Notes: a model not told the origin generated them from the sequence alone. Shown: positions 17,236 to 54,305, counted from the first letter of the stretch. The stretch: 64,000 nucleotides of DNA from Candidatus Phosphitivorax anaerolimi (GCA_001896555.1 MPOS01000002.1:77371-141370), one strand, 5' to 3'. A program made the numbers and translations.

Positions 17236-18090
17236 TCAGCCCCGTTTCATGGCCATGAAGCTCCCCATGGGTACGTCCACCTCCTGTGAGACGACCGGGC
17301 ACTTGACCATGAAGAGGTGGAAAACCTCCCTGCCGGGTGCATCGAGGGTTTCGAAGTTGCCCTGCCCCTTGGATATGACCAGGTCCGCGGCCGCGAAGCA
17401 CTCCAGAAACTCCTCGCTGCACAAGGAAAGCGGTGTTCCCGGGGCCTCGGAGCCGCTCGGGATGACCCTGCATAGCCTGTCGAGCCCGGCCTGGGCCGCA
17501 TCGGTCAGGGTGGCGTCGTTGATGACGGGAGCCGACCTGACCGCGCAGGTGACCCTATCCGGCCCGATATGCTCGATGAATATCCGGTCGAGAACGATCT
17601 CGCCGGCGTTGTCGGCGACGTAGAGGACGCGCTCCGCCTTTCTAAGCCGCTCGATGAGCTCAGGGATGTCGTTGACGGCAAACGATGAGTCCAGGGCGTT
17701 CATGATCGTGTCTTCTACTGCGATTTCCTCGCAGCCGTGTGCGCCAAGCCCGAAATCGATGATGTTGCCGGCTACCGCCATGCGTAGAGCAGCCTCCAGC
17801 ATATCGGGCCTGGATGCAATGATCCGCCTCAGCCGCGGCGCCAGAGACAGGGCCTGCTCGTTGGAGTGCCTCTTCTTTTCTCCGTAGGGATCGCCCTTGC
17901 CGTCCATGTCTCTGTAGATCCGGTAGATCTCCCGGGTGAACAGGGGCGGCGGAGCGTCACAGTCGAAACGGGCTAGGCCTTCGAGGACCCGGCGCATGAA
18001 AGGCTCCCGCTTATGCGGGGCGAGATACTCCCGGGCCAGCCCGGCCGCCTGCTTTGTCAGGCAGGCTATGCATTCGACCTGGGTGCGCAT
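17236..18090 (-). CDS. DUF89 family protein (ARMT1-like damage-control phosphatase family)
   Basis: Length and N-terminal ECIACL-containing region are consistent with DUF89. Co-operonic with the upstream mrp (3-nt gap). Confidence 0.5.
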   Translation of the reverse strand: MRTQVECIACLTKQAAGLAREYLAPHKREPFMRRVLEGLARFDCDAPPPLFTREIYRIYRDMDGKGDPYGEKKRHSNEQALSLAPRLRRIIASRPDMLEAALRMAVAGNIIDFGLGAHGCEEIAVEDTIMNALDSSFAVNDIPELIERLRKAERVLYVADNAGEIVLDRIFIEHIGPDRVTCAVRSAPVINDATLTDAAQAGLDRLCRVIPSGSEAPGTPLSLCSEEFLECFAAADLVISKGQGNFETLDAPGREVFHLFMVKCPVVSQEVDVPMGSFMAMKRG

Positions 18091-18093
18091 CTT

Positions 18094-18957
18094 TCAACGT
18101 GAAACGATCTGCTCGAGTATTTTCGAGACGATCTTTGCAAACGCCTTGCCCGCTTCCGTATCACCCGATGACGCCACGAACGGCCTGCCCTCATCGGTGT
18201 CGCGAACGATACCCGGATCTATGGGGACCGCGCCCAGGAACGGCACGCCCAGGTCCTCGGACGCCTTCCTGCCGCCGCCCGTCTTGAAGAGGTCGATGCT
18301 CTTGCCGCAGTGCGGGCAGGCAAAGCCGCTCATGTTCTCGATGATGCCGAGAGGTTTGAGCTCGAGTGCCCTGGCGAACTCCACACTCTTGCGCGAGTCC
18401 AGAAGCGCCACGTCCTGCGGGGTGGTGACGATCACCGCATAGGGCGTCTCCACTCCCTCGACGCCCTTGGTGAGCTGCGCGATGGAAAGCGGCTCGTCGC
18501 CCGTGCCCGGAGGCAGATCAACCACGAGGAAATCGAGGTCGCCCCAGTTCACGTCCTTCAGAAACTGTCTCATGACCGTATGTTTCATGGGGCCGCGCCA
18601 GATCACCGGCGTGTCAGGGCTGTCCAGCAGGTACCCCACAGAGACCACCTTGATGCCGCCGATGGCCTCCACGGGCAGGATATTGCCTTTTTCGTCGCCC
18701 ATGAGTCTCATGTTTTCCACTCCCAGGACCTTGGGGATGTCGGGCCCGTGAATGTCGCCGTCGAGCACACCCACCCGGTAGCCCTCACGTGCCAGGCTGA
18801 GGGCCAGGTTTGCCGTCACCGTGGACTTGCCTACCCCGCCCTTGCCGCTCATGACCATGATGGTATGCCTGATCCGGGAAAGCTGCTTCTTCAGTTTTTT
18901 CTGCTGATTCTCCTGTATCTGTATTATCTTGCTGTTATCGATATCTGTCATCCTCAT
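18094..18957 (-). CDS. Mrp/NBP35/ApbC-family P-loop ATPase (Fe-S cluster carrier)
   Basis: Deviant Walker [11 protein letters not shown] and CPHCG cysteine motif. Confidence 0.85.
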
Positions 18958-19213
18958 CTCCTGATACTTAAAAAAGGTGGATGTTACCTATCACATAGTT
19001 CAGCCCACGACAATGGCTCAAGGGTTTTACTGTCTTCCTATTTTTCATGTGGTATTTGCAGCACTTCAAGCGCGTCTCTCCTTTGTTGGAAAAGACTTCA
19101 CATCCCTGCCTTCGAAGCCGTCGTGCGCCATCCCTATGAAATGCTCACTTAAAGATCATAGGTTATCAGCTTGTCTGGACATTGTCGGGAACAATCCGAT
19201 CAAGCCCCATATT

Positions 19214-19229
19214 ATGTTATATATAACAT
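19214..19229. promoter_or_regulatory. perfect 16-bp palindrome ATGTTATATATAACAT (Zur/Fur-family-like operator candidate)
   Basis: Exact inverted repeat inside a roughly 170-bp AT-rich island in the divergent mrp/fmdE intergenic region. Its half-sites match the gamma-proteobacterial Zur box half-sites ATGTTATA/TATAACAT, but here they are abutted without the central N. Confidence 0.5.
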
Positions 19230-19255
19230 AAATAATACTTGCACAAGCTGTTGTT

Positions 19256-19271
19256 ATGTTATAGTTAACAT
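19256..19271. promoter_or_regulatory. second, imperfect copy of the same palindrome (ATGTTATAGTTAACAT)
   Basis: 14/16 symmetric positions. Its centre lies 42 bp (about 4 helical turns) from the first site. It overlaps the putative -10 region downstream of a TTGCAC -35 (19239-19244), about 55 nt before the fmdE-like start. Confidence 0.45.
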
Positions 19272-19326
19272 ATAAAATGAATGTATGGGCTCTCGGGCTC
19301 ATGAATAGATTTGAAAGGATATAGAC

Positions 19327-19881
19327 ATGGCATCCATCGTTGATTACGACACTCTTCTGGACGAGTGCATCACGTTTCACGGGCATCTCTGCATGGGGCA
19401 GGTTCTGGGAGTGCGGGTAGCATCAAAAGGCCTGGAGCTTGTCTCGCCTGATTTACCGCGGGATCTGATCGTTGCTGTGGAGATAGACCGCTGCCTGGCG
19501 GACGCTGTGCTCACGGTCACGGGCACGAGGATAGGGCGGCGCAGCCTCAAGCTGTATAATTACGGCCGCATGGCGGCATCGTTTCTGAACTGCACAACCG
19601 GAAAGGCATACCGGGTAAGGGCTGCCTACCAGGGGCCCCAGCCTGGGGACGACGAGAAGGCCATGAGGTCGATCCTTGTGCTCCCGGATGAAGAGATCGT
19701 CGCCTGGGAAGAGATCGAGCTCGTATTCCCTGAAAGCGAAATGCCCGGGAGACCAAAGAGAACCGTCCTCTGCAGCATCTGCGGCGAGAAGATCTTCGAC
19801 GGCAAGGACAGGCCGGGGCCCGATGGCCCTGCTTGCGCCGCATGCCTCGACGGCAGGTACTATACGGTCAAGAAGAGCTGA
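19327..19881 (+). CDS. FmdE-family protein (formylmethanofuran dehydrogenase subunit E-like domain with C-terminal Cys4 zinc ribbon)
   Basis: FHGHLCMG motif typical of the FmdE domain; C-terminal CSICGEK...CAAC zinc-ribbon. Confidence 0.6.
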   Translation: MASIVDYDTLLDECITFHGHLCMGQVLGVRVASKGLELVSPDLPRDLIVAVEIDRCLADAVLTVTGTRIGRRSLKLYNYGRMAASFLNCTTGKAYRVRAAYQGPQPGDDEKAMRSILVLPDEEIVAWEEIELVFPESEMPGRPKRTVLCSICGEKIFDGKDRPGPDGPACAACLDGRYYTVKKS

Positions 19882-19910
19882 AAATCGTAAAATTAGGGAG
19901 AGAGGTATCA

Positions 19911-20705
19911 ATGGGGCTGCATTTTGCCAGAAGGAAAGGATCGCCGTGGAGCCTGTTCGATCGGCTCATCGAGGGAATCCCGCAGGAGATCGAGGTCGAA
20001 GATTGTCTTGTCGGGCTCCACTGGATCATGGTCCGGTCGAAGGGTGTGGGGATTGCCATGACGCCGCCCGAGGGCTCCAGGCATATCGAGGGCGCGGGAA
20101 CATTCAGGGGCAGGAAGGTCAGGGATCTGGCCGGGCTCATGAGGTCGTGGAGCATCATGGAGGCGGCAATCGGCGCAGCCGCTGCCAACTCGTATTACAA
20201 TGCGCCCGAGGTGCTGGCGGAAACCTGGGATATCGACATCCACAACCAGCCTGAGCTCAATGCGTTCGAGTATTATCAGAAACGCCTTGAGGGAAAGAAG
20301 GTTGCAGTGAAAGGCCATTTTCCGGGGCTCGAAGGCCTCGCAGAGGCATGCGAGCTCTCGATCCTGGAGAGAAGGCCTCAGAAAGGTGATTTCCCCGATC
20401 CTGCCTGCGAATATCTCCTCCCCCGTCAGGATGCGGTCTTCATGACCGGGACCGCCCTCATCAACAAAACCATGCCCCGCCTCCTCGAACTCGCTGCCGG
20501 AGGGATGAGCGTGGTCGTCGGCCCCACCACGCCGATCACGCCTCTGCTCTTCGCCTTTGGTGCGACAGCGCTTGCAGGCTCTGTGGTCATCGATGAGAAG
20601 AACGCATGGCGCCACGTTGCAGAGGGCGGGGACAGGTCGATCTTCTCCCACGGGACCCGGATGATAAAGGCTGAGCCTGCCATGGCAAGGAGGAGCGGGC
20701 GATGA
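19911..20705 (+). CDS. DUF4213/DUF364 'putative heavy-metal chelation' family protein (paralogue 1)
   Basis: About 265 aa. N-terminal small domain plus C-terminal Rossmann-like domain ending ...GGDRS. The architecture and the fmdE/ABC-transporter context match the DUF4213+DUF364 family. The call is by pattern, not by search. Start chosen at the ATG after SD AGGGAGAGAGG. Confidence 0.5.
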   Translation: MGLHFARRKGSPWSLFDRLIEGIPQEIEVEDCLVGLHWIMVRSKGVGIAMTPPEGSRHIEGAGTFRGRKVRDLAGLMRSWSIMEAAIGAAAANSYYNAPEVLAETWDIDIHNQPELNAFEYYQKRLEGKKVAVKGHFPGLEGLAEACELSILERRPQKGDFPDPACEYLLPRQDAVFMTGTALINKTMPRLLELAAGGMSVVVGPTTPITPLLFAFGATALAGSVVIDEKNAWRHVAEGGDRSIFSHGTRMIKAEPAMARRSGR

Positions 20706-21541
20706 CTGTCCCGGGGTATGACCGCATGATCGATGCAATCGCCTCTTCGGCAGACCCGAGGCCGCGCATCGAGGACATCCGCATCTACACCAACTGGGTC
20801 CTGGTCAAGACGGGCAAGTGGTCGCTGTCCACGGTCTTTCGGGGCATGCCGGGCTTCGACGAGCACCCGGGCATGGACACCTGGATGGGGGGCTGGCTGG
20901 GAAGGCCCGGTCTCGAATCCGCCATGGAGCTCCTTTCGAGCAGGGAAACGCTCAAGCGCGCCGTGGGAATGGCCTGCCTAAAATCCCTGCTCCCGGAGCC
21001 CGAGCACGTGCTCTTCGGGAATGCCATCGACATGTTCGAGGCCGCATCGCCGCATGTGCCCATATGCTTCATCGGGCATTTCAAGGATGGCGCGGACTGG
21101 CGCAGCAGAGGCCGCCCGGTCTCCATCGTGGAGCTCTTTCCAAGGCCGGGAGACATCCACTGGGATGAGGCGGATGAAGTCCTTGAAAAGGCGCGGATCG
21201 TGCTCATGACAGGGCTCACCGTGGTAAACGAGACCCTTTCGGCAGTGGTGGCCCGCACGCCCTCGGCCCTCATCCGCGTGATCATGGGCCCGACCGTGCC
21301 GCCGAGCCGGGCGCTCTTCGACTTCGGCATCGACATGCTCGGCGTGACCCTGGTCGACGATGTCGAGGCCATGGTGGGATATGCGCGGCTGGGAGGGGGC
21401 AGCATCGCCTATTCTCCTCCGGGCGCCCTCCGGAAGATCAATATGGTGAGAAGCGCCGACGATATACGCCGGAGGCTTGCCTCCCTGCTGACGGACCAGT
21501 GGGAGATCACAGGGGAAAAGGAAGAACTGGCATGTGGCTGA
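20702..21541 (+). CDS. DUF4213/DUF364 'putative heavy-metal chelation' family protein (paralogue 2)
   Basis: Same architecture as the preceding gene (C-terminal ...LGGGSIAY). ATGA start/stop overlap with paralogue 1 suggests translational coupling. Confidence 0.5.
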   Translation: MTVPGYDRMIDAIASSADPRPRIEDIRIYTNWVLVKTGKWSLSTVFRGMPGFDEHPGMDTWMGGWLGRPGLESAMELLSSRETLKRAVGMACLKSLLPEPEHVLFGNAIDMFEAASPHVPICFIGHFKDGADWRSRGRPVSIVELFPRPGDIHWDEADEVLEKARIVLMTGLTVVNETLSAVVARTPSALIRVIMGPTVPPSRALFDFGIDMLGVTLVDDVEAMVGYARLGGGSIAYSPPGALRKINMVRSADDIRRRLASLLTDQWEITGEKEELACG

Positions 21542-22356
21542 ACGCAGTCGCCCAATGGCGCTCGAAACGGGTTGCCTGCGCCCTGGTGACGATCATCGAA
21601 TCGGCCGGGTCAACTCCCCGCAAGGCCGGATCGAAAATGGCGGTGAGCGCGTGCGGGAAAACCGCAGGCTCTGTTGGCGGAGGCGCAGTCGAGCTGAAAT
21701 GCATAGAGCTTGCGAAAGAAGCGATTGCCCGGGGGGCCTGCATCACCGGGCGCTTCGTTTCAAACGACCAGGGCAACGACTGGACGCTTGCGGAGCAGGA
21801 TAGGTTGCTTGGCCTGTGCGGCGGGACGCTCACGGTGTTCGTCGAGCCTCTGACGCCCGAGCCTGAGCTGGTGATCTTCGGCGGAGGCCACATAGGCATG
21901 CACCTGGGAAGGCTGTGCGAGGTCCTGGAAATGCCGTACCGCGTGTACGACGAGCGGAAAGACTTCGTTGACGAAAAGCGCTTCTCCGGTGCCAAGGCCC
22001 TCGTCTGCGCCCCGTTCGCCGAGATTTCAGCGCATGTCGAGCTGTCGGACAGGAGCTACTGCGTGGTCATGACCTACGGCCACGAGCACGACGAAGAGGT
22101 CCTGGAACAGCTCCTGAAAAACAGCGCGATCCCCTACATCGGCATGATCGGCAGCCCGAACAAGGCGGGCGTCCTGGTCCGGAACATCAGGCAGCGAGGC
22201 GGCGTCATCGACGATAGGCTCTACTGCCCCATCGGGCTTTGCATCGGCCGGAACCTCCCGCAGGAGATCGCCCTGTCGGTCATGGCCGAGGTCGTGCTGC
22301 TCGCAAGGGGAGGACGGTACGACCATATGCGGATCGACTGGACCGGGAAAACTTAA
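21532..22356 (+). CDS. XdhC/CoxI-family protein (molybdenum-cofactor insertion chaperone-like)
   Basis: XdhC_CoxI N-domain (TIIESAGSTPRKAGSKMAV...GSVGGGAVE) plus XdhC Rossmann domain (VIFGGGHIG). SD AAAAGGAAGAA upstream; 10-nt overlap with the preceding gene. Confidence 0.7.
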   Translation: MWLNAVAQWRSKRVACALVTIIESAGSTPRKAGSKMAVSACGKTAGSVGGGAVELKCIELAKEAIARGACITGRFVSNDQGNDWTLAEQDRLLGLCGGTLTVFVEPLTPEPELVIFGGGHIGMHLGRLCEVLEMPYRVYDERKDFVDEKRFSGAKALVCAPFAEISAHVELSDRSYCVVMTYGHEHDEEVLEQLLKNSAIPYIGMIGSPNKAGVLVRNIRQRGGVIDDRLYCPIGLCIGRNLPQEIALSVMAEVVLLARGGRYDHMRIDWTGKT

Positions 22357-22454
22357 AATCAGCGGCATGAACCCCGGGGCAAGCCGTTGACTTTGTTTTA
22401 TTACAAGCGGCGGGGGATAAGCCCAGGAGACATTCAAATCATGCGAGAGGAAAT

Positions 22455-24485
22455 GTGAATATGAAGAGGGGATTGGGCATCAGGTGCATTTGCGGACTGG
22501 TTGTGCTTTTCCTGGCCTTCTCCGGTGCGGCGGCTGCCCGGGAGGCGGGCGGAGAAGCGAAAAAAGGCGATGCGAACGTCTTTAAGCTCGGAGAGGTGGA
22601 AGTCAGCGGAAAAAAAGAAGCGGTAAAGAACGTGACCGTGGACAAGGTCTCGTCGGAAGAGATGAGGCTCTTCAATGCAGACAACGTTGCCGAGGCCGCG
22701 GGCAGGCTCCCCGGGGTGAACATGTCCGCTTTCGGTGTAAGGAACGAGCGGATGGTATACGTGAGGGGCTTCGATCTCAAGCACGCGCCGATCTTCCTGG
22801 ACGGCATCCCCATCTATGTCCCCTATGACGGATACCCGGACCTCGGCAGGTTCACCACCTCCGATTTGTCGGAGATCGTGGTTTCCAAGGGGTTCACGTC
22901 CGTACTCTACGGGCCGAACACCATGGGAGGCGCGATCAACATGGTGTCGCGGAGACCGGAAAAGACCTTTGAAGGCGATGCGGGCGCCGGCTACGGCACC
23001 GGGGGGACCTACAGGGCACACCTCAATCTCGGGACGAATCAGGGAAGGTGGTATGTCCAGGCAGGCGGGTCATACATCGACAGCGATTATTTCCCGCTTT
23101 CCGACAGCTTCGACCCCACGCCTGCGGAAGACGGTAAGCGCAGAGAAAACTCCTATTATAAGGACGAGAGCGCAAACATAAAAATCGGCTTCACTCCCAA
23201 TGCCGAAGACGAGTATGCCTTGAGCTACATTCGCCAGCACGGCGTGAAGGGCTCGCCGCCGTATGCCGGGACAGACACTTCCCAGACTGCCCGTTACTGG
23301 CAGTGGCCCTACTGGAACAAGGAGAGCGTGTACTTCACCTCCAGGACGGAATTTCAAGCCCCCTTCTACCTGAAAACAGGCGCTTTCTATGACAGGTTCT
23401 GGAATTCCCTCCTGAGCTTCGACGATGCTACATACTCCACCATTACCCGGAAATACGCATTCAGGAGCGACTACAACGACCATACCTTCGGCGGTTCCGT
23501 CGAGGTCGGGACGGAAGCGGTCCGGTCCAACCTGATCAAGCTCTCTCTCAGGTACAAGAACGACATCCACAAGGAGTGGAACGAGGGAAAACCCATCCAG
23601 ACCTTCCAGGACTGCACCCTTTCCGCCGGTCTGGAAGATACGGTCACTATTTCCGAAGAGCTGTATGTCATTGCCGGAGCGAGCTATGACATGGCGGATA
23701 CCGTGGAGGCGGAAGACCTGGACGGCTCGAATCAGAGGGTCGATTTCGAGATGGAAAGAACAGCTGCGTTCAACCCCCAGCTCGGCATATTCTATACCCT
23801 CCCCGGCAAGGGAGTGATCCATGCCGCGATATCGAGAAAGACCCGCATACCTTCCATCAAGGACAAGTTCTCCTACAGGCTGGGCACCGCGATCCCCAAC
23901 CCCGGTCTCGATCCGGAGAAGTCGATCAACTATGAGATCGGATATCAGAACACCTTCTTCGGCAGGTTCTTCTTCAAGACCACGGTCTTCCACAACAACA
24001 TCACCGACTACATTCTCCAGGCAACGGTGCCCGATCCCTCGAACCCCGGGAGCACGACCCTGCAGAACCAGAACATCGGGAAGGTATCCCAGTACGGGGC
24101 CGAGGTGGAAGTATCGGGGGCACTGCTCGATGTCCTCGAAGGAGGCCTCACCTACGCCTATATCCACCAGAACAACAGAACGAATTCCAACAAGCTGACA
24201 AACGTCCCCGCGGCCAAGGCGGGAGGCTACCTCAAGTGCTCTCCCGCACACTTTGTGAGCGGGCTCGTGGACGTGCAGTACGTTTCAAAGATGTACAGCT
24301 CGTCGAACGGCGTGCGGGAGGCCGGGGACTTCACTGTCGTGAATGCGAAGCTCATGTGCGAGCCGGTGAAAGGAATCACGGCTGAAGCAGGGCTCGACAA
24401 TGTGTTCGACAGGAACTACGCTCTGGATGAGGGATTTCCCGAGCCGGGCAGGACCATGTTCGCAAATATCGGCTACAGGTTCTAG
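22455..24485 (+). CDS. TonB-dependent outer-membrane receptor
   Basis: Signal peptide, plug-domain motifs and a C-terminal beta-barrel ending in the terminal aromatic ...IGYRF. Confidence 0.85.
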   Translation: MNMKRGLGIRCICGLVVLFLAFSGAAAAREAGGEAKKGDANVFKLGEVEVSGKKEAVKNVTVDKVSSEEMRLFNADNVAEAAGRLPGVNMSAFGVRNERMVYVRGFDLKHAPIFLDGIPIYVPYDGYPDLGRFTTSDLSEIVVSKGFTSVLYGPNTMGGAINMVSRRPEKTFEGDAGAGYGTGGTYRAHLNLGTNQGRWYVQAGGSYIDSDYFPLSDSFDPTPAEDGKRRENSYYKDESANIKIGFTPNAEDEYALSYIRQHGVKGSPPYAGTDTSQTARYWQWPYWNKESVYFTSRTEFQAPFYLKTGAFYDRFWNSLLSFDDATYSTITRKYAFRSDYNDHTFGGSVEVGTEAVRSNLIKLSLRYKNDIHKEWNEGKPIQTFQDCTLSAGLEDTVTISEELYVIAGASYDMADTVEAEDLDGSNQRVDFEMERTAAFNPQLGIFYTLPGKGVIHAAISRKTRIPSIKDKFSYRLGTAIPNPGLDPEKSINYEIGYQNTFFGRFFFKTTVFHNNITDYILQATVPDPSNPGSTTLQNQNIGKVSQYGAEVEVSGALLDVLEGGLTYAYIHQNNRTNSNKLTNVPAAKAGGYLKCSPAHFVSGLVDVQYVSKMYSSSNGVREAGDFTVVNAKLMCEPVKGITAEAGLDNVFDRNYALDEGFPEPGRTMFANIGYRF

Positions 24486-24494
24486 GGGCTTGGA

Positions 24495-25565
24495 ATGCGG
24501 CGGAGCTCCCGGTATCGCGTCGCGGCATATACGCTGCCCATCCTGGTCATGACCTTCCTCTTTCCGGTCCTGGCAGGCATGTCGCCTGCCTCGGCCGGGG
24601 AGATCACTGACATGACCGGCAGGAAAGTCGTCGTGCCTGACACAATCAACCGGGTGTTCGCCGTATCCCCACCGGGCACCTATCTGCTCTATGCCCTCGA
24701 CCCATCCGTCATCATCGGCCTGAACTTCCCTCTGTGGGAGAGCGAGAAGCGGTATACGGCGAAAAGCTACCAGACCCTGCCGGTCATCGGCGGCATGGTG
24801 GGCCAGGGAAGGAACATCAATCAGGAGGTGCTCCTGGCGGCAAAGCCCGATGTAATCGTCATCTGGGCAGGCAGAGTCTCCGCTGTGACGAGAAACTACG
24901 AAGAGATGTTTGCGAGGATGAAGATCCCCTGGTTCAACGTTTGCCTCGATACCATAGATGATTACCCTGAAGCGATCCTGTTTGTGGGCAGGCTCCTGGG
25001 CAGGAAAGAGCGGGCCGCAGAGCTCCATGGCTATGCCGTGTGTTCGCTGAACCAGGTGAAAACTTCTGTTGCCGGGATACCCGAGGCTTCACGGCCAAAA
25101 GTGTATTATGCACAGGGCATGGACGGCCTCTGCACCGATCCTGCCGGCTCCATGCATACCGAGCTGATCGAGTTCTGCGGCGGCGTCAACGTCCACAGGA
25201 AGCAGTCGCGCGACAATTACGGCTACGGCATGGACAAGGTGACTTTGGAACAGGTCATGCTCTATGACCCGGACGCCATTCTCATCAAGGAAAAGGCCTT
25301 TTACGCCGAGGTGTTCTCAGACCCGCGGTGGAGAAGGATCAAAGCCGTGCGGGAGAAAAGATGCTTCCTGATCCCGCATGGCCCGTTCAACTGGTTCGAC
25401 CGGCCGCCCTCGTTCATGCGGCTCCTGGGCGCCAAGTGGCTCATGTCGATCCTCCATCCCGAACGCTTCCCCATCGACATGATGGGCGAGACGAAGCTCT
25501 TCTACCGGCTCTTCCTGGGAGTCGACCTGAGCGACAAAGAGGCAAAGGAGCTTCTCGGAGAGTGA
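24495..25565 (+). CDS. periplasmic substrate-binding protein, class III (FecB/BtuF/FhuD-like) of an ABC importer
   Basis: Signal peptide, about 350 aa. The two-lobe helical-backbone family pattern is typical of siderophore, heme or cobalamin binders. Confidence 0.75.
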   Translation: MRRSSRYRVAAYTLPILVMTFLFPVLAGMSPASAGEITDMTGRKVVVPDTINRVFAVSPPGTYLLYALDPSVIIGLNFPLWESEKRYTAKSYQTLPVIGGMVGQGRNINQEVLLAAKPDVIVIWAGRVSAVTRNYEEMFARMKIPWFNVCLDTIDDYPEAILFVGRLLGRKERAAELHGYAVCSLNQVKTSVAGIPEASRPKVYYAQGMDGLCTDPAGSMHTELIEFCGGVNVHRKQSRDNYGYGMDKVTLEQVMLYDPDAILIKEKAFYAEVFSDPRWRRIKAVREKRCFLIPHGPFNWFDRPPSFMRLLGAKWLMSILHPERFPIDMMGETKLFYRLFLGVDLSDKEAKELLGE

Positions 25566-26572
25566 AGCCTTCGATCCTCATAATCCTTTGCGCCGTGCTT
25601 GGTCTTATGTGCTGCCTCTCGCTCACCCTCGGCAAATATCCGGTCGGTATAGGCGACATGGCTGCATTCTTCCTGTACAAAACAGCCGGCGCGGGGCCGA
25701 TGGGGGTGGCGGATGCCGAGCTCATGGAGAACCTGCTCTTCGACATCAGGCTTCCCCGCATCCTCGCCGCCATGCTGATCGGAGCCGCTCTTTCCACATC
25801 GGGGGCGTCGTTCCAGGCGCTGTTCACCAACCCGCTCGTGTCTCCGAAGATGCTGGGCGTGCTTTCCGGCGCGTCCTTCGGCGCGGTATCGGCAATGCTC
25901 TTTACCAGGAGCTGGTTCGTGGTGCAGGCCTCTGCAGCGGCCTTCGGCTTCATCGCGGTAGGCGCTGCGATCGGGATAGCCCGGCTGTACCGGACGGATT
26001 CGATCATCATGCTGGTCCTGGGAGGCATCATCAGCGAGGCCCTGTTTACCTCCCTGATCTCCATCGTCAAATACGTTGCCGACCCCTACGACGATCTGCC
26101 CGCCATCACCTACTGGCTCATGGGAAACCTCTCGTTCGTGAATTTAAGGACTGTCACCATCGCCGGTGTCCCGATCCTTGCGGGCGTCTTCGCGCTCATG
26201 CTGTACGGAAAGCATTTGAATGTTCTTTCCCTGGGCGATGAAGAGGCGCACAGCCTGGGCGTCAACATACGGGTCATCCGCTATGGCATCATCTTTTTTG
26301 CCACGCTCGCAAGCACCCTGACCGTGGTCATCGGCGGCATGGTGGGCTGGGTGGGCCTCATCATACCTCACGTGGCCAGGATGCTCGTAGGCCCCAACAA
26401 TATCATCCTCCTTCCCGCCTCGGCGCTCCTGGGGGCAATCTATCTGCTGCTCGCCGACGGTCTTTCCCGGCTGCTGTTCAGCTTCGAGATACCAATCGGC
26501 ATCGTGACCTCGCTCTTCGGCATCCCCTTTTTCCTGTACATCCTGAGGAATGCGAAGAAGGGGTGGAGCTGA
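25562..26572 (+). CDS. FecCD-family ABC permease
   Basis: Polytopic membrane protein with FecCD/BtuC-type conserved glycine-rich segments. GTG start overlaps the stop of the binding-protein gene. Confidence 0.8.
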   Translation: MKPSILIILCAVLGLMCCLSLTLGKYPVGIGDMAAFFLYKTAGAGPMGVADAELMENLLFDIRLPRILAAMLIGAALSTSGASFQALFTNPLVSPKMLGVLSGASFGAVSAMLFTRSWFVVQASAAAFGFIAVGAAIGIARLYRTDSIIMLVLGGIISEALFTSLISIVKYVADPYDDLPAITYWLMGNLSFVNLRTVTIAGVPILAGVFALMLYGKHLNVLSLGDEEAHSLGVNIRVIRYGIIFFATLASTLTVVIGGMVGWVGLIIPHVARMLVGPNNIILLPASALLGAIYLLLADGLSRLLFSFEIPIGIVTSLFGIPFFLYILRNAKKGWS

Positions 26573-26575
26573 ATC

Positions 26576-27472
26576 ATGTTCATCCGAGTCGAGAACATCA
26601 GTTTTTCATACGGGAAAAAGGAAGTGCTCGACGATGTCTCCCTCTCTTTTCGCCGAGGCGAGGTGGTATCCCTGCTCGGACCGAACGGAAGCGGCAAGAC
26701 GACCCTCCTGAAGGTTCTCCTGGGAATCCTCAAGCCTTCAAGGGGCAGGGTCCTGTTCGAAGGTGCTCCGATCGTTGCGATCGGCGCGAAACGGTTCGCC
26801 CGGAGGGTAGCCTATGTGCCGCAGCTGCATCACGGCGCGTTTTCCTACTCTGTCCTGGACGTCGTGCTCATGGGGCGCATGCCGTACAAGAATTTTTTTT
26901 CGCGGTTCACCCGCCGCGACAACGAGATAGCCGAATCCATGCTCGAAAAGCTGGGGATCGTCCACCTCAAGCACAAGCCGTATACGGAGATCAGCGGCGG
27001 CGAGCGCCAGCTCACCCTCATCGCGCGCGCACTGGCACAGGGGGCCGACACCTTCATCATGGACGAGCCCATAACCGGCCTGGACTACGGGAATCAGATC
27101 AGGCTCCTGGAGCAGATCATGGTTCTTTCGGCAGAGGGGCATACCGTCATCAAGTCGACGCACTTTCCCGACCATGCCCTGTGGGTGTCCGACCGCGCGG
27201 TGCTTATGAAGGACGGGACCGTGGCGGCGGACGGCACTGCATCCGGGGAGATCACGGCGGGCAACCTGGGCAAACTCTACAACATCCCGGTGCGGGTCAT
27301 GGACGCCGGCAACGGATTCAGCGTCTGCATCCCCTCTTCGAAGAAATGGGAGTGCACATGCCGGGACAGGAAGAACGGGCCTGCACATCACAAACACGAC
27401 TGCTTCCGCAAAGAAGGGGGAGAGACGAGAGCAGGCAAGACCGCCTGCAGCGGTGAGGGAAAGAAGGAGTAA
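26576..27472 (+). CDS. ABC transporter ATP-binding protein (FepC/BtuD-type) with Cys/His-rich C-terminal extension
   Basis: Walker [10 protein letters not shown], signature SGGERQ, Walker B FIMDEP. It has an extra tail of about 45 aa containing 5 Cys and 3 His ([26 protein letters not shown]...C). Confidence 0.85.
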
Positions 27473-27477
27473 CCGTT

Positions 27478-27912
27478 GTGGAATGGCTGAAGATCGTGAT
27501 CGACTACGGGATTGTCGGGCTGCTCCTCGTCATGAGCGTTATGGCGCTGGCCGTCGCCCTGGAGAGGTACCTGTTCTATCGCAGCGTCAAGATCGATGAG
27601 TTCACGGACAGGAAGACCCTGGAGCTCGAGCTCACCGGGAAGCTCCACCTCATCGCCACCATAGGCAGCAATGCGCCGTACATCGGGCTGCTCGGCACCG
27701 TGCTCGGGATCATGCTCACGTTCTACACCATGGGCAGCGCCGGCTTCATGGATACGGGAAAGATCATGATCGGACTCGCTCTGGCGCTCAAGGTGACTGC
27801 CGTGGGACTTCTCGTGGCCATACCGTCGGTAGCCTGCTACAACCTTCTCCTGAGGAAGGCGAAGGTGCTCATCCTTCAGTGGGAGATCAAGCATGGAAGA
27901 CAAGGGCTTTGA
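27478..27912 (+). CDS. exbB: MotA/TolQ/ExbB-family proton-channel protein (short form)
   Basis: Two to three TM helices with the conserved TolQ/ExbB C-terminal helix pattern. GTG start; followed by exbD with overlap. Confidence 0.6.
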
Positions 27913-28273
27913 TTACATCAATGTCATTCCGCTGGTGGATGTGATGCTCGTGCTGCTCACCATCGTGCTCACGACCTCGACCTTTGTGGCCACGGGCTCG
28001 ATGCCGGTGGAACTCCCCAGGGCAAGAGAGGTCCACGGAGATGCCCTGAAGACCCTGACCGTGGAAATAGATGCCTCGGGACGGATCTTCATGAACGCAG
28101 CGCCGGTATCTCTCGAAGGAATGAGGGCAATGATGAGCCCGCTCGAAAGGTCGCTTCCCGTCCAGATACGGGCGGACAGGGCCATCGCCCTCCAGGTGTT
28201 CGTGGATGTGCTGGAAATCATTCAGACTCTTGGATTCACGAGGGTGAATCTCCAGCTCGAGCTCAAGAAATGA
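27893..28273 (+). CDS. exbD: ExbD/TolR-family biopolymer transport protein
   Basis: Single N-terminal TM ([14 protein letters not shown]) plus a periplasmic domain; length 126 aa. Confidence 0.75.
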
Positions 28274-28992
28274 GCCGGCAGGCGAGGGCAATCATCCTAT
28301 CCCTCTTCCTCCATGCCGTGGCCGTCGCATCGGTTTGGGCCATGAGCTGCTCTTTCAATTCTCTCTCCCAGCCTGTAACCATTGACCTGAGCCTCCTTGA
28401 TGCCGGAGGTCTCCTTGCCGGGAACGGATTGCCGGCAGACAGGCATGCCGGGGGTCCCTGCCTGAAGCCGCCGGAGAAGGCCTTCAAAAAGAAAAAGCCG
28501 GTCGAGAATGACGTGCATGAACCGATTATTCCTCTGGCAGAAACGCGGAATCCGGCGCCTGACGCGCTCTCGGATACAGGGGCAATAGAGCCCCTTGCAT
28601 CTTCGGACCCGGATATTCAGGCCACCGGCGGAACAGCCGCTGTTGACAGAGCGGAATCTCCTTCCGGGAGCGGTTCCTCCTCCATGCCTGGAGGGGCTCA
28701 AAGAGACGGCCATGCACTATACACGGCGGAGCAGTTCAATTATATCAAGGAGATGATCCGTAAGAACCTCGTTTATCCTCACATGGCCAGGAAGCTCGGC
28801 GTGGAGGGCAGCGTGGTCCTGGCTTTCATCGTCCTGCCCGACGGCGGGGTGAAGGATGTTCGGGTTACGATCAGCAGCGGCAGCAGCATTCTTGACAGCA
28901 ATGCCGTCACTACGGTCAGGAAGACGGCGCCTTTCCCCAGACCGCCCGTAGAGGCAGAGATCATCATTCCCGTTGTGTACAGACTGAAATAG
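28270..28992 (+). CDS. tonB: TonB-family energy transducer
   Basis: N-terminal TM anchor, Pro/Ala-rich linker and TonB C-terminal domain (GSVVLAFIVLPDGGVKDVRV). ATGA overlap with exbD. Confidence 0.7.
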   Translation: MSRQARAIILSLFLHAVAVASVWAMSCSFNSLSQPVTIDLSLLDAGGLLAGNGLPADRHAGGPCLKPPEKAFKKKKPVENDVHEPIIPLAETRNPAPDALSDTGAIEPLASSDPDIQATGGTAAVDRAESPSGSGSSSMPGGAQRDGHALYTAEQFNYIKEMIRKNLVYPHMARKLGVEGSVVLAFIVLPDGGVKDVRVTISSGSSILDSNAVTTVRKTAPFPRPPVEAEIIIPVVYRLK

Positions 28993-29006
28993 TTCCGGTA
29001 ACAAGA

Positions 29007-29894
29007 ATGTCTGAAAGAGATGATATGAAAAACAGAAGGGATGGGCAGCCGAATATGGACAGGATGCCGGATTGGCCCCTGCTCTGGAAGCAGCTAGCAG
29101 AGATCCAGGCCAGGGGCATGAATAAAAAACGGAGCAGCAAGCCCGAAGATGCGTGGGCGAACCGGGCGCGCACCTTCGGCGACAGCATCAAGAAACGATG
29201 GGAAAAAGAGGATTCCAGCAGGAGATTCCTGCTCGATCTGCTGAAGACCAATCCCGGATCCACCGTGCTCGACATCGGCGCCGGAACAGGTTCCTGGGCC
29301 TGCCTGCTTTCCCCGTACGCGGCCAAGGTCACCGCCCTCGAGCCCTCGCCCGCAATGATCGCACTCATGGAGGAGAACATCAGGGGGCTCGGGATCACGA
29401 ATGTGGAGATCGTCGAGGGCTCATGGCCCGGCGCCCAAGTCCAGGACCATGACTTCACACTGTGCTCGCATGCCATGTATGAATGCACCGATTTCCCCGC
29501 CTTTGTGCGGCGCATGAACGACGTCTCAAGACGCTGCTGCCTTCTCCTCATGCGTGCGGCTGTTCCCGACGGCGTCATGGCCGAAGTCGCCCGGGAGGTC
29601 TGGGGGCAGCCGCATGACAGCCCCAATTTCCTCATCGGCTACAACATCCTTTTCCAGATGGGCATTTTTGCAAACGTGCTCATCGAGGACACCGGCCTCT
29701 GGAAGCCCTGGACCAATACCGATCTGGATGAGGCCCTGGCCGACGTGAAGCGCAGGCTCGGATTGGCCGGAGATGATCGTCACGACGGCCCCATTGAGAA
29801 AATACTGATCGACAGGCTTACCTGGAAGGATGGAAGGCTCGTCTGGCCGCCCGGTGTCCGCTCGGCCTTGGTGTATTGGTACAAGCAGACATGA
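29007..29894 (+). CDS. class I SAM-dependent methyltransferase
   Basis: Motif I VLDIGAGTG. Last gene of the co-directional block. Confidence 0.65.
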   Translation: MSERDDMKNRRDGQPNMDRMPDWPLLWKQLAEIQARGMNKKRSSKPEDAWANRARTFGDSIKKRWEKEDSSRRFLLDLLKTNPGSTVLDIGAGTGSWACLLSPYAAKVTALEPSPAMIALMEENIRGLGITNVEIVEGSWPGAQVQDHDFTLCSHAMYECTDFPAFVRRMNDVSRRCCLLLMRAAVPDGVMAEVAREVWGQPHDSPNFLIGYNILFQMGIFANVLIEDTGLWKPWTNTDLDEALADVKRRLGLAGDDRHDGPIEKILIDRLTWKDGRLVWPPGVRSALVYWYKQT

Positions 29895-38218: not shown

Positions 38219-38893
38219 CTACACGATGAATGGGTACACGGCTGCAAAGCCTAAGCCCGGGATGAAATTTCCTACCCGGATCCGGGTGATTTCCATGAGA
38301 TTGATGCCGATGCCCAGAATGATCATCCCGCCCGTGGACGTTATTGAGGCGAGCACCTGGGGATCCTGGAGAAAGGCCAGATGCGAGGCCGCCAGCGTCA
38401 GCCCTCCCTGGACCACCAAGACAGGGAGGGCGGCAAAAGCCACTCCCACCCCCAGCGTGGACGCCAGTGCCACGGACGCCACACCATCGAGGAGGGACTT
38501 GAGGTAGAGTGTGCTGGCATCGCCTATGGTCCCGTCCTGGATGCAGCCGATGATCATCATTGCCCCGGTGAGATAAAGGACCGAAGCGGAGACAAAACCC
38601 TGCACAAAGGTAGCCGACTCGGACCGGAACCGCTCCTTGAGATGGACGCCCACCCAGGCGACCCCGTCTTCGATGCGAAGCATCTCACCAACAAGACCTC
38701 CCAGGAGCAGACAGGCGACCATGGGAATAAGGCTGTCCACCGAAAGGGCCATCTTCAGGCCGATCGTTATCACCGCAAGGCCCAGGGCGTGCATGAGCGT
38801 GCCCCTGATCCTCTCGGAGATATGCCTTCCTGCAAGCAGGCCCAGTATAGACCCGGCCGCAACCGCCGATGCATTCACGAGCGTTCCTGTCAC
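38219..38893 (-). CDS. DUF554-family membrane protein
   Basis: N-terminus MTGTLVNASAVAAGSILG and a polytopic glycine-rich membrane pattern typical of DUF554. GTG start. Confidence 0.5.
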   Translation of the reverse strand: MTGTLVNASAVAAGSILGLLAGRHISERIRGTLMHALGLAVITIGLKMALSVDSLIPMVACLLLGGLVGEMLRIEDGVAWVGVHLKERFRSESATFVQGFVSASVLYLTGAMMIIGCIQDGTIGDASTLYLKSLLDGVASVALASTLGVGVAFAALPVLVVQGGLTLAASHLAFLQDPQVLASITSTGGMIILGIGINLMEITRIRVGNFIPGLGFAAVYPFIV

Positions 38894-39083
38894 TTCACTT
38901 CCCTTTTCTTGCCGTGCTCAACCGTTAGTACAGAAGAAAGTTCGCCGAGGTCAATCACAAAGATTTTCTTACGAGGATACTCTCCCTCGCAGAAAATATC
39001 ATATCAGAGGGCATATATCGTCTGTTAGTAAAACAATATTATCTGCTCTTGACACACACCCCTATAAGCCTTACATTTTTCAT

Positions 39084-50978: not shown

Positions 50979-50994
50979 TCTTCCCCCTTGTGTG

Positions 50995-53234: not shown

Positions 53235-53284
53235 GGCTATTGTCCATTCACCACCTTCATGACGTGCACCGGCGGATAAGTCCC

Positions 53285-54157: not shown

Positions 54158-54305
54158 ATCACCCCGCGGCCCGGAAATCAGGTCCGCCACCTCTGCCTGA
54201 AGGCATGTAAGCTCCTTCCTGGTGAAAACACATTTCCACTCCGGCACCCGCTGTTTGCAGCACCGCTCCGGAGTGAACCGTTCTCCTCTTCTTTCCCACA
54301 GAACA

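What the first reader, a model, noticed from the sequence alone, without database searches (positions are those of the whole stretch)
19327..22356. FmdE-domain protein + tandem DUF4213/DUF364 paralogues + XdhC-like chaperone: an uncharacterised metal/cofactor-handling module
Four tightly packed co-directional genes, with start/stop overlaps at 20702 and 21532-21541, follow the palindromic operator. They encode an FmdE-like Cys-rich protein, two paralogous proteins of about 265-280 aa with the architecture of the DUF4213+DUF364 'putative heavy-metal chelation' family, and an XdhC/CoxI-type protein. None of the first three families has a biochemically established function. XdhC homologues are known to bind and insert molybdenum cofactor into molybdo-enzymes. 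The module sits directly upstream of a TonB-dependent/ABC import system, suggesting a processing or insertion step for an imported metal or metal chelate (Mo/W cofactor, corrinoid, or Zn/Co/Ni complex). The duplication of the DUF364 gene, with paralogues too divergent to be a recent duplication, hints at a heterodimer.
Basis: inference. Interest (0 to 1): 0.75.

Follow-up and report, generated by a model that had tools for sequence, protein, structure and literature searches.

The report
Molybdenum/tungsten uptake operon with unknown helpers
The four genes begin a 12-gene operon that most likely scavenges molybdenum or tungsten through an outer-membrane receptor and an ABC pump; what the four cytoplasmic helper proteins do chemically remains unknown.

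Summary
FmdE (19327-19881), two 23%-identical DUF4213/DUF364 paralogues (19911-20705, 20702-21541) and an XdhC-family protein (21532-22356) are real, overlapping and co-directional. They lie behind a doubled 20-nt palindrome.

They head a 12-gene operon: TonB-dependent receptor, binding protein, permease, ATPase, ExbB, ExbD, TonB and a SAM methyltransferase.

Four lines of evidence point to Mo/W rather than corrinoid, Zn, Co or Ni:
- The permease and binding protein are closest to MolB and MolA, the H. influenzae molybdate/tungstate type II importer.
- Twelve of 80 orthologous loci carry Moco/Tuco riboswitches. In at least nine they sit directly upstream of FmdE, DUF364, XdhC or the ABC genes.
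- ModABC/TupABC, MoeA and Mop genes cluster around the orthologues.
- The palindrome matches a box that abuts the start codon of ModE-like (HTH_1 + PBP_like) regulators. These regulators are divergent from tup/mod transporters.

FmdE+DUF364a and DUF364b+XdhC behave as two independent pairs. The a/b heterodimer idea is therefore not supported.

The chemistry of the cytoplasmic proteins is still unknown. The only characterised DUF364 enzyme acts on a SAM derivative.

This is a new variant of a known kind of system, of moderate interest.

The parts
19212..19231 (.). Operator box 1: perfect 20-nt palindrome TTATGTTATA|TATAACATAA
   Evidence: 0 mismatches, 0.00 expected by chance. Conserved in the closest relative L089. 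Matches the box that abuts the start codon of ModE-like HTH_1+PBP_like regulators in L195 and L212-L214.
19254..19272 (.). Operator box 2: TTATGTTATAGTTAACATA, 2 mismatches, 42 nt after box 1
   Evidence: L089 has the same two-box arrangement, 41 nt apart.
19251..19278 (+). Sigma-70-like promoter (TTGTTA, 16 nt spacer, TAAAAT) whose spacer is covered by box 2
   Evidence: This is a consensus match only, 9 of 12 positions. A repressor role for the boxes is inferred from the geometry.
19327..19881 (+). FmdE-family protein, 184 aa. It has the FHGHLC motif (residues 17-22), Cys56, and a C-terminal CxxC...CxxC zinc ribbon (C149, C152, C170, C173).
   Evidence: The motif definitions come from PMC2954224.
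19911..20705 (+). DUF4213+DUF364 protein 'a', 264 aa, close relative of the solved structure Dhaf4260 (3l5o)
20702..21541 (+). DUF4213+DUF364 protein 'b', 279 aa, an old paralogue (23% identity) that travels with XdhC
21532..22356 (+). XdhC-family protein, 274 aa (XdhC_CoxI + XdhC_C Rossmann). It belongs to a subfamily with GSVGGGAVE in place of SGGCVE.
22461..24485 (+). TonB-dependent outer-membrane receptor (Plug + beta-barrel), 674 aa
24495..25565 (+). Periplasmic binding protein (Peripla_BP_2), MolA-like
   Evidence: 4pag E 5e-76, MolA (3psa/3psh) E 2.7e-16, BtuF E 1e-5.
25562..26572 (+). FecCD-type permease of a type II ABC importer, MolB-like
   Evidence: HI1471 (2nq2) E 2.6e-59, FhuB E 5e-50, BtuC E 1e-35.
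26576..27472 (+). ABC ATPase
27478..27912 (+). ExbB (MotA_ExbB)
27893..28273 (+). ExbD
28270..28992 (+). TonB (TonB_C)
29025..29894 (+). Class I SAM-dependent methyltransferase, last gene of the operon (an alternative start is at 29007)
   Evidence: A 76% orthologue sits at the same position in L089. Methyltransferases recur in the Syntrophus and Methanospirillum Mo/W islands.

Best explanation
The region is the front end of a 12-gene operon (19327-29894) of a Desulfomonilia bacterium from anaerobic digesters. The operon most likely acquires molybdenum and/or tungsten when these metals are scarce.

Proposed path:
1. A TonB-dependent receptor captures the Mo/W species at the outer membrane. It is powered by the operon's own ExbB-ExbD-TonB.
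2. A MolA-like binding protein hands the species to a MolBC-like type II ABC importer.
3. Two independent pairs of cytoplasmic proteins then handle the metal or the pterin cofactor. FmdE plus DUF364a is the core pair and is almost always found with such importers. DUF364b plus a Cys-less XdhC-type protein is an optional pair, probably acting at the molybdopterin/cofactor level.
4. A SAM methyltransferase closes the operon. Its role is unknown.

Transcription is probably repressed by a Mo/W-responsive ModE-like regulator (HTH_1 + PBP_like). It would bind the two palindromic boxes that flank and cover the promoter. This would do the job that Moco/Tuco riboswitches do for the same genes in Firmicutes.

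Shown here:
- the gene content
- the homologies
- the conserved neighbourhoods
- riboswitch control of the orthologues
- the match of the box to the regulator's own promoters

Inferred:
- that the substrate is the free oxyanion (about even odds against a complexed or thiolated form)
- the order of hand-over between proteins
- repression by the boxes
- that the DUF364 proteins bind an adenosyl ligand such as SAM
For: 1. Operon structure. Twelve co-directional genes have gaps of at most about 105 nt and five overlaps. The structure is identical in six independent assemblies.

2. Transporter identity. The permease's best solved relative is MolB (HI1471, E 2.6e-59), against 5e-50 for FhuB and 1e-35 for BtuC. 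The binding protein hits MolA at E 2.7e-16, against 1e-5 for BtuF. MolBC-A binds and imports molybdate/tungstate (PMC4031551).

3. Riboswitches. Rfam finds RF01055 directly upstream of the orthologous operon in 5 of 17 loci. A covariance model finds 19 copies in 12 of 80 loci. Examples: L079, riboswitch then XdhC-FmdE-DUF364a-FecCD-ATPase-PBP; L016, riboswitch then FmdE-DUF364a-FecCD; L048, riboswitch then FecCD-ATPase-PBP-DUF364a. Both the P3-containing (Moco) and the P3-lacking (Tuco) classes occur (classes per PMC2408646).

4. Neighbourhood. Of 80 DUF364a loci, 55 have FecCD, 28 FmdE, 22 a receptor and 16 XdhC. Type I ModABC/Tup genes lie within 10 kb in about 12 loci and MoeA in 6. In Desulfofundulus, the DUF364a orthologue lies next to type I Mo/W ABC transporter genes that follow a Tuco riboswitch; a second DUF364 gene sits between their ModB and ModC genes. 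The Methanospirillum island holds FDH, FdhD, MoeA, DUF364b-XdhC, two Mop/TOBE genes, ModABC and FmdE. In M. maripaludis, fmdE is adjacent to modA-modB-DUF364-modC, and the cluster is cofit with nifH.

5. Operator. The box is conserved as a pair in the closest relative. In high-GC metagenome contigs the same box lies between an HTH_1+PBP_like regulator-MoeA pair and a Tup-like transporter (L195). It also lies upstream of an FmdE-Zn finger-MoCF_biosynth fusion (L150). Orthologous regulators carry the box against their start codon. JGI names them 'molybdate transport repressor ModE-like'.

6. Fusion. The FmdE-MoCF_biosynth fusion ties FmdE to molybdopterin handling (also noted in PMC2954224).
Against: - No Mo/W gene other than the XdhC-like one, and no such regulator, lies in the 64-kb window. 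The window itself has no riboswitch. The metal assignment therefore rests on orthologues and on the operator match.
- MolA is a low-affinity binder, and its role as the physiological substrate binder has only been shown in H. influenzae.
- The closest relatives of the binding protein (4pag, 4ovk) have no known ligand.
- The oxyanion-binding residues were not compared.
- TonB-dependent receptors and type II importers usually carry bulky chelates or cofactors, not small oxyanions.
- The only characterised DUF364 enzyme does SAM chemistry with no link to Mo. Methyltransferases recur in these islands without explanation.
- The regulator-box link is by position and conservation only. No binding was tested, and the TunR literature could not be read.
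- One 66%-identical DUF364a orthologue (L007/L088) has no transporter nearby.
Confidence: 0.75

Rival explanations
1. Chelate or metallophore system. The DUF364 enzymes, with the methyltransferase, use SAM to build or process a small-molecule Mo/W carrier. Alternatively they release the metal from an imported complex or thiomolybdate. The receptor and type II importer would then take up that complex rather than the free oxyanion.
For: The only characterised DUF364 enzyme cleaves a SAM derivative at C-gamma, giving azetidine plus MTA. The adenosyl-binding hallmarks (GH loop, acidic residue after beta-2) are kept in both paralogues. Class I methyltransferases, and a TrmO_N gene, recur next to these genes. 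TonB-dependent receptors plus type II importers typically carry chelates. Many hosts are strict anaerobes from settings where sulfide is common, and in sulfidic culture medium molybdate is converted to thiomolybdates (PMC10390477).
Confidence: 0.15
2. Cofactor salvage. By analogy with BtuB-BtuFCD for vitamin B12, the system would import a pterin cofactor or precursor (Moco, molybdopterin, cPMP). XdhC and the DUF364 proteins would be the cytoplasmic acceptors.
For: The architecture is the same as the B12 and haem salvage systems. The orthologues are controlled by a cofactor-sensing riboswitch. XdhC-family proteins are cofactor carriers. The Dhaf4260 structure paper predicted a pterin- or flavin-like ligand (PMC2954201).
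Against: XdhC is present in only 16 of 80 loci and has been lost in the closest relative. DUF364 and FmdE also accompany oxyanion-specific type I transporters. The permease and binding protein are nearest to MolB/MolA, not BtuC/BtuF. No Moco uptake system is known in bacteria (own knowledge).
Confidence: 0.07
3. Another metal or cofactor: a Zur-type zinc regulon, a corrinoid importer or a siderophore importer.
For: The TGTTATA half-site resembles gamma-proteobacterial Zur boxes (own recollection, not tested). FmdE crystals bound Zn/Ni at the His2Cys2 site. The methyltransferase and the DUF364 fold weakly resemble CbiT. NCBIfam lists BtuC, FecC and FhuB among sub-threshold hits.
Against: No cobalamin riboswitch was found in the window or in the 17 related loci searched with Rfam; only Moco riboswitches and tRNAs were found. 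No zinc, nickel or cobalt genes appear in any neighbourhood inspected. The published delta-proteobacterial Zur and Fur consensus sequences differ from the box. In other high-GC contigs the box sits in Mo/W gene clusters.
Confidence: 0.03

Closest known systems
MolBC-A (HI1470/71/72) of Haemophilus influenzae, a type II ABC importer for molybdate/tungstate
   Same: The permease is the best solved match (E 2.6e-59). The binding protein is the best characterised match (E 2.7e-16). Both systems have the FecCD-type architecture, and molBCA is repressed by molybdate.
   Different: This operon has its own TonB-dependent receptor and ExbBD-TonB. It also carries four cytoplasmic accessory proteins and a methyltransferase. 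The binding protein is much closer to uncharacterised 4pag (E 5e-76) than to MolA. Ligand residues and affinity are unknown.
ModABC / TupABC / WtpABC type I Mo/W transporters with embedded DUF364 and adjacent fmdE (Methanococcus maripaludis MMP_RS02670-02690; Desulfofundulus L087)
   Same: The same accessory families (DUF364, FmdE) are attached to Mo/W uptake. In Desulfofundulus the transporter genes are under a Tuco riboswitch. In M. maripaludis the cluster is cofit with nitrogenase.
   Different: The transporter class differs (type I, with a ModA/TupA-type binding protein), and there is no outer-membrane step. The mod-embedded DUF364 is a different subfamily: BLASTP finds no similarity to DUF364b.
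BtuB-BtuFCD and haem/siderophore TonB-dependent uptake systems
   Same: The same three-tier layout: TonB-dependent receptor, Peripla_BP_2 binding protein, FecCD permease and ATPase. In Firmicutes the orthologues are under cofactor-riboswitch control.
   Different: The riboswitch is Moco/Tuco, not cobalamin. The sequences are closer to MolAB. The accessory genes are unrelated to B12 or iron handling.
Dhaf4260 (PDB 3l5o), the DUF364 structure from Desulfitobacterium hafniense, and Orf5, the DUF364 4''-methyl-SAM cyclase of bonnevillamide biosynthesis
   Different: Dhaf4260 has no known function. Orf5 sits in a Streptomyces non-ribosomal peptide cluster next to a radical-SAM methylase, not next to metal transporters. 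Its catalytic Tyr61 and Glu204 could not be mapped here.
XdhC of Rhodobacter capsulatus and the XdhC_rel_AOR / CoxF-type Moco chaperones
   Same: The same two-domain architecture, with both Pfam domains above threshold. The CGGxLxVFxEP motif is kept.
   Different: It scores below both NCBIfam equivalog cut-offs (123 against 161.6; 201 against 350). It lacks the Cys of the SGGCVE motif. It is paired with DUF364b and not with a xanthine-oxidase-family enzyme.
ModE / TunR / TaoR-type Mo/W-responsive regulators
   Same: The window's box fits the box found at the start codon of HTH_1+PBP_like regulators. These are encoded with MoeA and are divergent from tup/mod transporters. The HTH + PBP-like layout is that described for W/Mo regulators (PMC11980592).
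   Different: The classical ModE consensus (CGnTATATA-N6-TATATAnCG) and the Desulfovibrio one (CGGTCACG-N14-CGTGACCG) differ from this box. The regulator gene is not in the window. Binding is untested.

Membership tests
FmdE (PF02663) | Profile score above Pfam gathering cut-off | tested here: met
   88 bits against a cut-off of 22.9.
FmdE (PF02663) | [quoted passage not shown] | tested here: met
   FHGHLC at residues 17-22, Cys56, and C149/C152/C170/C173. Motif definitions come from PMC2954224. Metal occupancy is not testable here.
FmdE as a formylmethanofuran dehydrogenase operon member | Co-transcription with fmd/fwd catalytic subunit genes | tested here: not met
   There are no fmd/fwd genes in the operon or in the 64-kb window.
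DUF4213/DUF364 (PF13938 + PF04016) | Both domains above cut-off, and the Dhaf4260 fold | tested here: met
DUF364 azetidine-carboxylate synthases (Orf5 type) | Cyclisation of (methyl-)SAM with catalytic Tyr61 and Glu204, in a natural-product cluster with a radical-SAM C-methylase | tested here: not met
   The context criterion fails: there is no radical-SAM or NRPS gene in the operon. Activity is not testable here.
XdhC family | XdhC_CoxI plus XdhC_C domains | tested here: met
   68 and 112 bits, both above cut-off.
XdhC equivalogs (TIGR02964 xanthine dehydrogenase accessory protein; NF045664 AOR maturation factor) | Score above the curated equivalog cut-off, and adjacency to the client molybdo-enzyme | tested here: not met
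   123.2 against 161.6, and 200.7 against 350. No xanthine-oxidase-family enzyme lies in the window. The SGGCVE cysteine is replaced by Ala.
MolBC-A-type type II molybdate/tungstate importer | FecCD permease and Peripla_BP_2 binding protein whose nearest characterised relatives are MolB and MolA | tested here: met
   MolB E 2.6e-59 is the top solved hit. MolA E 2.7e-16 is the top characterised hit.
MolBC-A-type type II molybdate/tungstate importer | Binding pocket residues that coordinate the oxyanion, and measured binding | not tested
   The MolA structure paper was not available. Ligand residues were not mapped, and binding is not testable with these tools.
Mo/W-regulated regulon | Control by a Moco/Tuco riboswitch or a Mo/W-responsive repressor | tested here: inconclusive
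   The window has no riboswitch. Orthologous operons have one in 12 of 80 loci. The window's boxes match the operator of ModE-like regulators, but the regulator is not in the window.
TonB-dependent transporter system | Plug plus 22-strand barrel receptor, with ExbB, ExbD and TonB | tested here: met
   Plug 69 bits and barrel 114 bits. ExbB, ExbD and TonB_C are in the same operon.
BtuB-BtuFCD corrinoid uptake | Cobalamin riboswitch, or BtuF/BtuC as nearest relatives | tested here: not met
   No RF00174 hit in the window or in 17 related loci. BtuF E 1e-5 and BtuC E 1e-35 are far behind MolA and MolB.
Opine / nicotianamine-type metallophore clusters (Cnt-like) | Nicotianamine-synthase-like enzyme, opine dehydrogenase and an exporter | tested here: not met
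Zur regulon | A Zur box upstream of zinc uptake or zinc-sparing genes | tested here: not met
   No zinc genes were found. The published delta-proteobacterial Zur consensus sequences differ from the box. The box occurs in Mo/W clusters elsewhere.

The most novel reading that the evidence does not exclude
FmdE and the DUF364 proteins may be a missing, SAM- or nucleotide-dependent step of Mo/W handling in anaerobes. One possibility is that they convert an imported complexed or thiolated Mo/W species into the form that MoeA can insert. Another is that they select between Mo and W. In this reading Gram-negative anaerobes take up Mo/W through a dedicated TonB-dependent receptor, an outer-membrane step for which the literature searches here found no description.
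Probability: 0.3. Interest if true: 0.8.

Novelty: new variant of a known kind. Interest (0 to 1): 0.6.

Why it matters
Two protein families have lacked a role for a long time. FmdE has been seen in fmd operons since the 1990s. DUF364 had its first structure in 2010 and its first enzyme in 2026.

Here both are placed firmly in Mo/W acquisition, by riboswitch control, gene neighbourhood, a gene fusion and operator evidence. That turns an open annotation problem into specific experiments in cultivable organisms that carry orthologues: Desulfitobacterium, Syntrophus, Methanospirillum and M. maripaludis.

The finding also suggests that many anaerobes and soil bacteria use a TonB-dependent, MolBC-like route for Mo/W. 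These include Desulfobacterota, Fibrobacterota, Acidobacteriota and Verrucomicrobiota. Such a route bears on trace-metal limitation of formate, CO2 and nitrogen metabolism in sulfidic or peat environments.

If the substrate proves to be the plain oxyanion and the helpers are simple carriers, the finding is a useful but unsurprising annotation.

Tried and rejected
1. Zinc idea. The TGTTATA half-site first suggested a Zur box. This was rejected after the riboswitch, neighbourhood and regulator evidence.

2. Odd-spaced version of the box (ATGTTATANTATAACAT). It gave no match in the window; the box is even-spaced.

3. The box in the 80 genome loci. It was not found upstream of the more distant orthologous operons and is specific to this lineage. 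It was seen only in L089 and in unrelated Mo/W clusters.

4. MAFFT alignment of five riboswitches. L048 was put out of register. The covariance model was built from four sequences instead.

6. BLASTP of DUF364b against the mod-embedded DUF364 of Desulfofundulus found no similarity. These are different subfamilies.

7. Papers that could not be read. The MolA structure paper and the TunR paper were not held. Full-text searches for TunR found nothing usable. The oxyanion ligand residues and the published TunR motif could therefore not be compared.

8. Literature search for TonB-dependent Mo/W uptake or molybdophores. It found nothing matching this system.

9. Rest of the window. It holds only housekeeping genes, with no Mo/W gene and no candidate regulator apart from an ArsR-type protein 9 kb downstream of the operon.

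10. PDB search with the methyltransferase and the receptor. No close characterised relative was found.

11. Metagenome scan for the box. Only the high-GC hits were used.

Full report
**What is in the sequence**

FmdE is at 19327-19881 (184 aa). A DUF4213+DUF364 protein is at 19911-20705 (264 aa). Its called start is ATG 19911 behind a GGGAGAGAGG ribosome-binding site, not the TTG at 19833 that opens the longest ORF.

A second DUF4213+DUF364 protein is at 20702-21541 (279 aa). An XdhC_CoxI+XdhC_C protein is at 21532-22356 (274 aa). All score above Pfam's gathering thresholds. The ATGA overlap at 20702-20705 and the 10-nt overlap at 21532-21541 are exact. The two DUF364 proteins share 23% identity. 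Profile-profile comparison of their two subfamilies gives 99.6% probability of homology.

Upstream lies a perfect 20-nt palindrome, TTATGTTATA|TATAACATAA, at 19212-19231. A second copy with 2 mismatches lies 42 nt downstream at 19254-19272. Shuffled sequence gives 0.00 such matches. The second copy fills the spacer of a sigma-70-like promoter.

**The unit is larger than the finding**

Identical contigs from six assemblies show a 12-gene operon:
- FmdE, DUF364a, DUF364b, XdhC
- TonB-dependent receptor (22461-24485)
- Peripla_BP_2 binding protein (24495-25565)
- FecCD permease (25562-26572)
- ABC ATPase (26576-27472)
- ExbB, ExbD, TonB
- a class I SAM methyltransferase (29025-29894)

The organism is a Desulfomonilia bacterium from anaerobic digesters. 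The rest of the window is housekeeping. It holds no molybdenum gene and no obvious regulator for this operon. Rfam finds no riboswitch in the window.

**Which metal: the transporter**

The permease's best solved relative is HI1471 (MolB) at E 2.6e-59. FhuB follows at 5e-50 and BtuC at 1e-35. The binding protein is closest to two uncharacterised structures, 4pag (E 5e-76) and 4ovk. Next comes HI_1472 (MolA) at E 2.7e-16, with BtuF only at 1e-5. MolBC-A is the type II importer shown to bind and take up molybdate and tungstate (PMC4031551).

**Which metal: riboswitches**

I scanned one genome per species with a DUF364a alignment and kept 80 loci. Rfam run on 17 of them found the Moco/Tuco riboswitch RF01055 in five, each directly upstream of the orthologous genes. 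It found no cobalamin riboswitch.

A covariance model built from four of these riboswitches found 19 copies in 12 loci:
- L016: riboswitch, then FmdE-DUF364a-FecCD-ATPase-PBP
- L022 and L012: riboswitch, then DUF364a
- L021: riboswitch, then FmdE-DUF364a
- L079 (a Desulfitobacterium MAG): riboswitch, then XdhC-FmdE-DUF364a-FecCD-ATPase-PBP
- L048: riboswitch, then FecCD-ATPase-PBP-DUF364a
- L081 and L077: riboswitch, then PBP (with FecCD-ATPase in L081) on the other strand

Most of these have the P3 stem. L048 and the three copies in Desulfofundulus lack it. Regulski et al. link P3 presence to Moco and P3 absence to the tungsten cofactor (PMC2408646). The module therefore serves either metal, depending on the organism.

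**Which metal: neighbourhood**

Across the 80 loci the counts are:

| Partner of DUF364a | Loci (of 80) |
|---|---|
| FecCD permease | 55 (47 on the same strand within 5 kb) |
| FecCD + ATPase + binding protein, same strand within 5 kb | 41 |
| FmdE | 28 |
| TonB-dependent receptor | 22 (Gram-negative phyla) |
| XdhC | 16 |
| DUF364b | 6 |

Type I ModA/ModB/ModC or TupA genes lie within 10 kb in about 12 loci, and MoeA in six.

In Desulfofundulus thermobenzoicus, a second DUF364 gene sits between the ModB and ModC genes of a type I Mo/W ABC operon behind a Tuco riboswitch. The DUF364a orthologue lies immediately downstream, next to further type I permease and ATPase genes, with two MoeA genes nearby. 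The DUF364 link is therefore to Mo/W uptake as such, not to one transporter class.

In M. maripaludis, fmdE (MMP_RS02690) lies next to modA-modB-DUF364-modC. That cluster is cofit with nifH under nitrogen fixation.

**Which metal: the operator**

The box is absent from the more distant orthologous operons. The closest relative (L089; DUF364a 74%, FmdE 84%) keeps two copies, TTATGTTATAAATAACATAA, 41 nt apart at the same place.

A metagenome scan for TATGTTATANATAACATA gave mostly chance hits in AT-rich DNA. The few high-GC hits are telling:
- In L195 (GC 0.61) the box lies between a regulator-MoeA pair and a ModB-ATPase-TupA-like operon. The regulator has HTH_1 and PBP_like (PF12727) domains.
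- In L150 (GC 0.66) the exact box precedes a gene that fuses FmdE, its zinc finger and a molybdopterin-binding MoCF_biosynth domain.

JGI names the regulator family 'molybdate transport repressor ModE-like protein'. Three orthologous loci have the same layout: regulator-MoeA, divergent from Tup-like and ModABC genes, with formate-dehydrogenase-type enzymes nearby. Each carries a related box against the regulator's start codon: TATGCTATAAATAACATA, TATGCTATATCCTGCATA and TATGTTGTATATTGCATA.

I conclude that the window's boxes are most likely the operator of a regulator of this family. The classical ModE consensus and the Zur consensus sequences published for delta-proteobacteria differ from the box.

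**Anatomy of the cytoplasmic part**

The four proteins are not one block.

FmdE and DUF364a form the common pair. The closest relative keeps only these two. Between DUF364a and the receptor it has decayed remnants of the N-termini of DUF364b and XdhC.

DUF364b and XdhC form a second pair. Orthologues at 65-66% and 61-65% identity occur together in Syntrophus aciditrophicus. There they sit next to an orthologous receptor and importer but without FmdE or DUF364a.

The same pair occurs in Methanospirillum. It lies in an island with FDH, FdhD, MoeA, two Mop/TOBE genes, ModABC, FmdE and three methyltransferases.

This pattern argues against an obligate a/b heterodimer. It suggests FmdE-DUF364a and DUF364b-XdhC as the working pairs.

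**What the cytoplasmic proteins look like**

- FmdE has the FHGHxC motif and Cys56 of the His2Cys2 metal site, plus a CxxC...CxxC zinc ribbon.
- Both paralogues keep the Gly-His loop and the Glu after the second Rossmann strand. The structure paper equates these with adenosyl binding.
- The only characterised family member, Orf5, cyclises 4''-methyl-SAM.
- The XdhC protein falls below both NCBIfam equivalog cut-offs. Like most module-linked XdhC proteins, it has GSVGGG[ATGP][VA]E where the solved mycobacterial homologue has SGGCVE.

**How it most likely works**

Under Mo/W shortage the repressor leaves the boxes. The receptor, energised by its own ExbBD-TonB, concentrates the Mo/W species in the periplasm. 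The MolA-like protein and the MolBC-like pump bring it in.

FmdE-DUF364a then receive or process the metal. DUF364b-XdhC act on or carry the pterin cofactor.

The system-level assignment is well supported; I put it at about 0.75. The steps inside the cell are inference.

Whether the cargo is the bare oxyanion is open. Type II importers and TonB-dependent receptors usually carry bulky ligands. Many of the hosts are strict anaerobes, and in sulfidic culture medium molybdate is converted to thiomolybdates. SAM-type enzymes also recur in these islands. I therefore keep a chelate/processing rival at about 0.15 and cofactor salvage at about 0.07. Zinc, corrinoid or iron readings are left with about 0.03.

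**Comparison with what is known, and novelty**

The transporter core works like MolBC-A and passes the sequence-level membership tests. Its ligand residues were not checked.

The association of DUF364 and FmdE with metal transporters was noted in 2010, and for M. maripaludis in 2024.

Three things are new here:
- riboswitch, fusion and operator evidence that fixes the metal
- the split into two accessory pairs
- the conserved TonB-dependent tier in several Gram-negative phyla

My literature searches found no description of this third feature.

I rate this a new variant of a known kind of system, with interest about 0.6. It makes the long-open roles of FmdE and DUF364 testable, but it does not itself reveal their chemistry.

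Noticed in passing
L089 10792-11090: The closest relative has short decayed remnants of the DUF364b and XdhC N-termini between DUF364a and the receptor gene (MTVPVYNRMISVIAS..., MWLKSITEWRKAG...). The pair was therefore lost recently and together.
   Followed up: yes
L090 10001-11822; L091 10001-11657: The DUF364b-XdhC pair is 61-66% identical between this Desulfomonilia MAG, Syntrophus aciditrophicus and the archaeon Methanospirillum. This suggests gene transfer between domains among syntrophic partners.
   Followed up: partly
window 18981-18997: A third, weaker copy of the box (ATGTTACCTATCACATA, 3 mismatches) lies 24 nt upstream of the divergent mrp/NUBPL-type ATPase (18094-18957, minus strand) and DUF89/ARMT1 phosphatase (17236-18090, minus strand) genes. 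These two genes are not conserved next to the module elsewhere.
   Followed up: no
window 21532-22356 and XdhC genes of L008, L009, L011, L014, L017, L025, L090, L091: Module-linked XdhC proteins share GSVGGG[ATGP][VA]E in place of the SGGCVE cysteine motif of the solved mycobacterial homologue. They keep CGG[ST]LTVFIEP. This looks like a distinct subfamily.
   Followed up: partly
window 29025-29894; L089 17753; L090 560-1195 and 6160-6942; L091 7653-8504, 12542-13258 and 19316-20182: Class I SAM methyltransferases recur in these Mo/W islands without an evident role. In Syntrophus a TrmO_N (PF01980) gene follows XdhC. PF01980 is a domain that the FmdE structure paper reports fused to FmdE in other proteins.
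   Followed up: partly
L150 8321-10117: A fusion protein (FmdE + treble-clef zinc finger + MoCF_biosynth molybdopterin-binding domain) is preceded by an exact copy of the box. ModABC-like genes lie on the same contig.
   Followed up: partly
L144 4120-4165; L109 1489-1560: The box is embedded in a roughly 44-nt perfect palindrome next to a DrrA-like ABC ATPase (L144). It also occurs as four tandem boxes at 21-22 nt spacing between two small divergent genes of unknown family (L109). These may be other targets of the same regulator family.
   Followed up: no
L007/L088 10001-10786: A 66%-identical DUF364a orthologue in a Deltaproteobacteria MAG stands alone. It has no transporter, FmdE or XdhC within 10 kb and lies next to a multicopper oxidase and a hydrolase.
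   Followed up: partly
L045 9091-9735: In a Desulfitobacteriia MAG, two tandem Moco riboswitches are followed by an ORF that looks Crp/Fnr-like by eye (no domain search was run) and then by DUF364a.
   Followed up: no
window 38637-39437; 13592-17047; 47066-54319: Three other features of the window: an ArsR-type HTH protein with a roughly 190-aa N-terminal extension of no known family; a 1151-aa protein with only a weak alpha-amylase match; and a type II secretion gene cluster (secretin, GspE-type ATPase, GspC-like).
   Followed up: no
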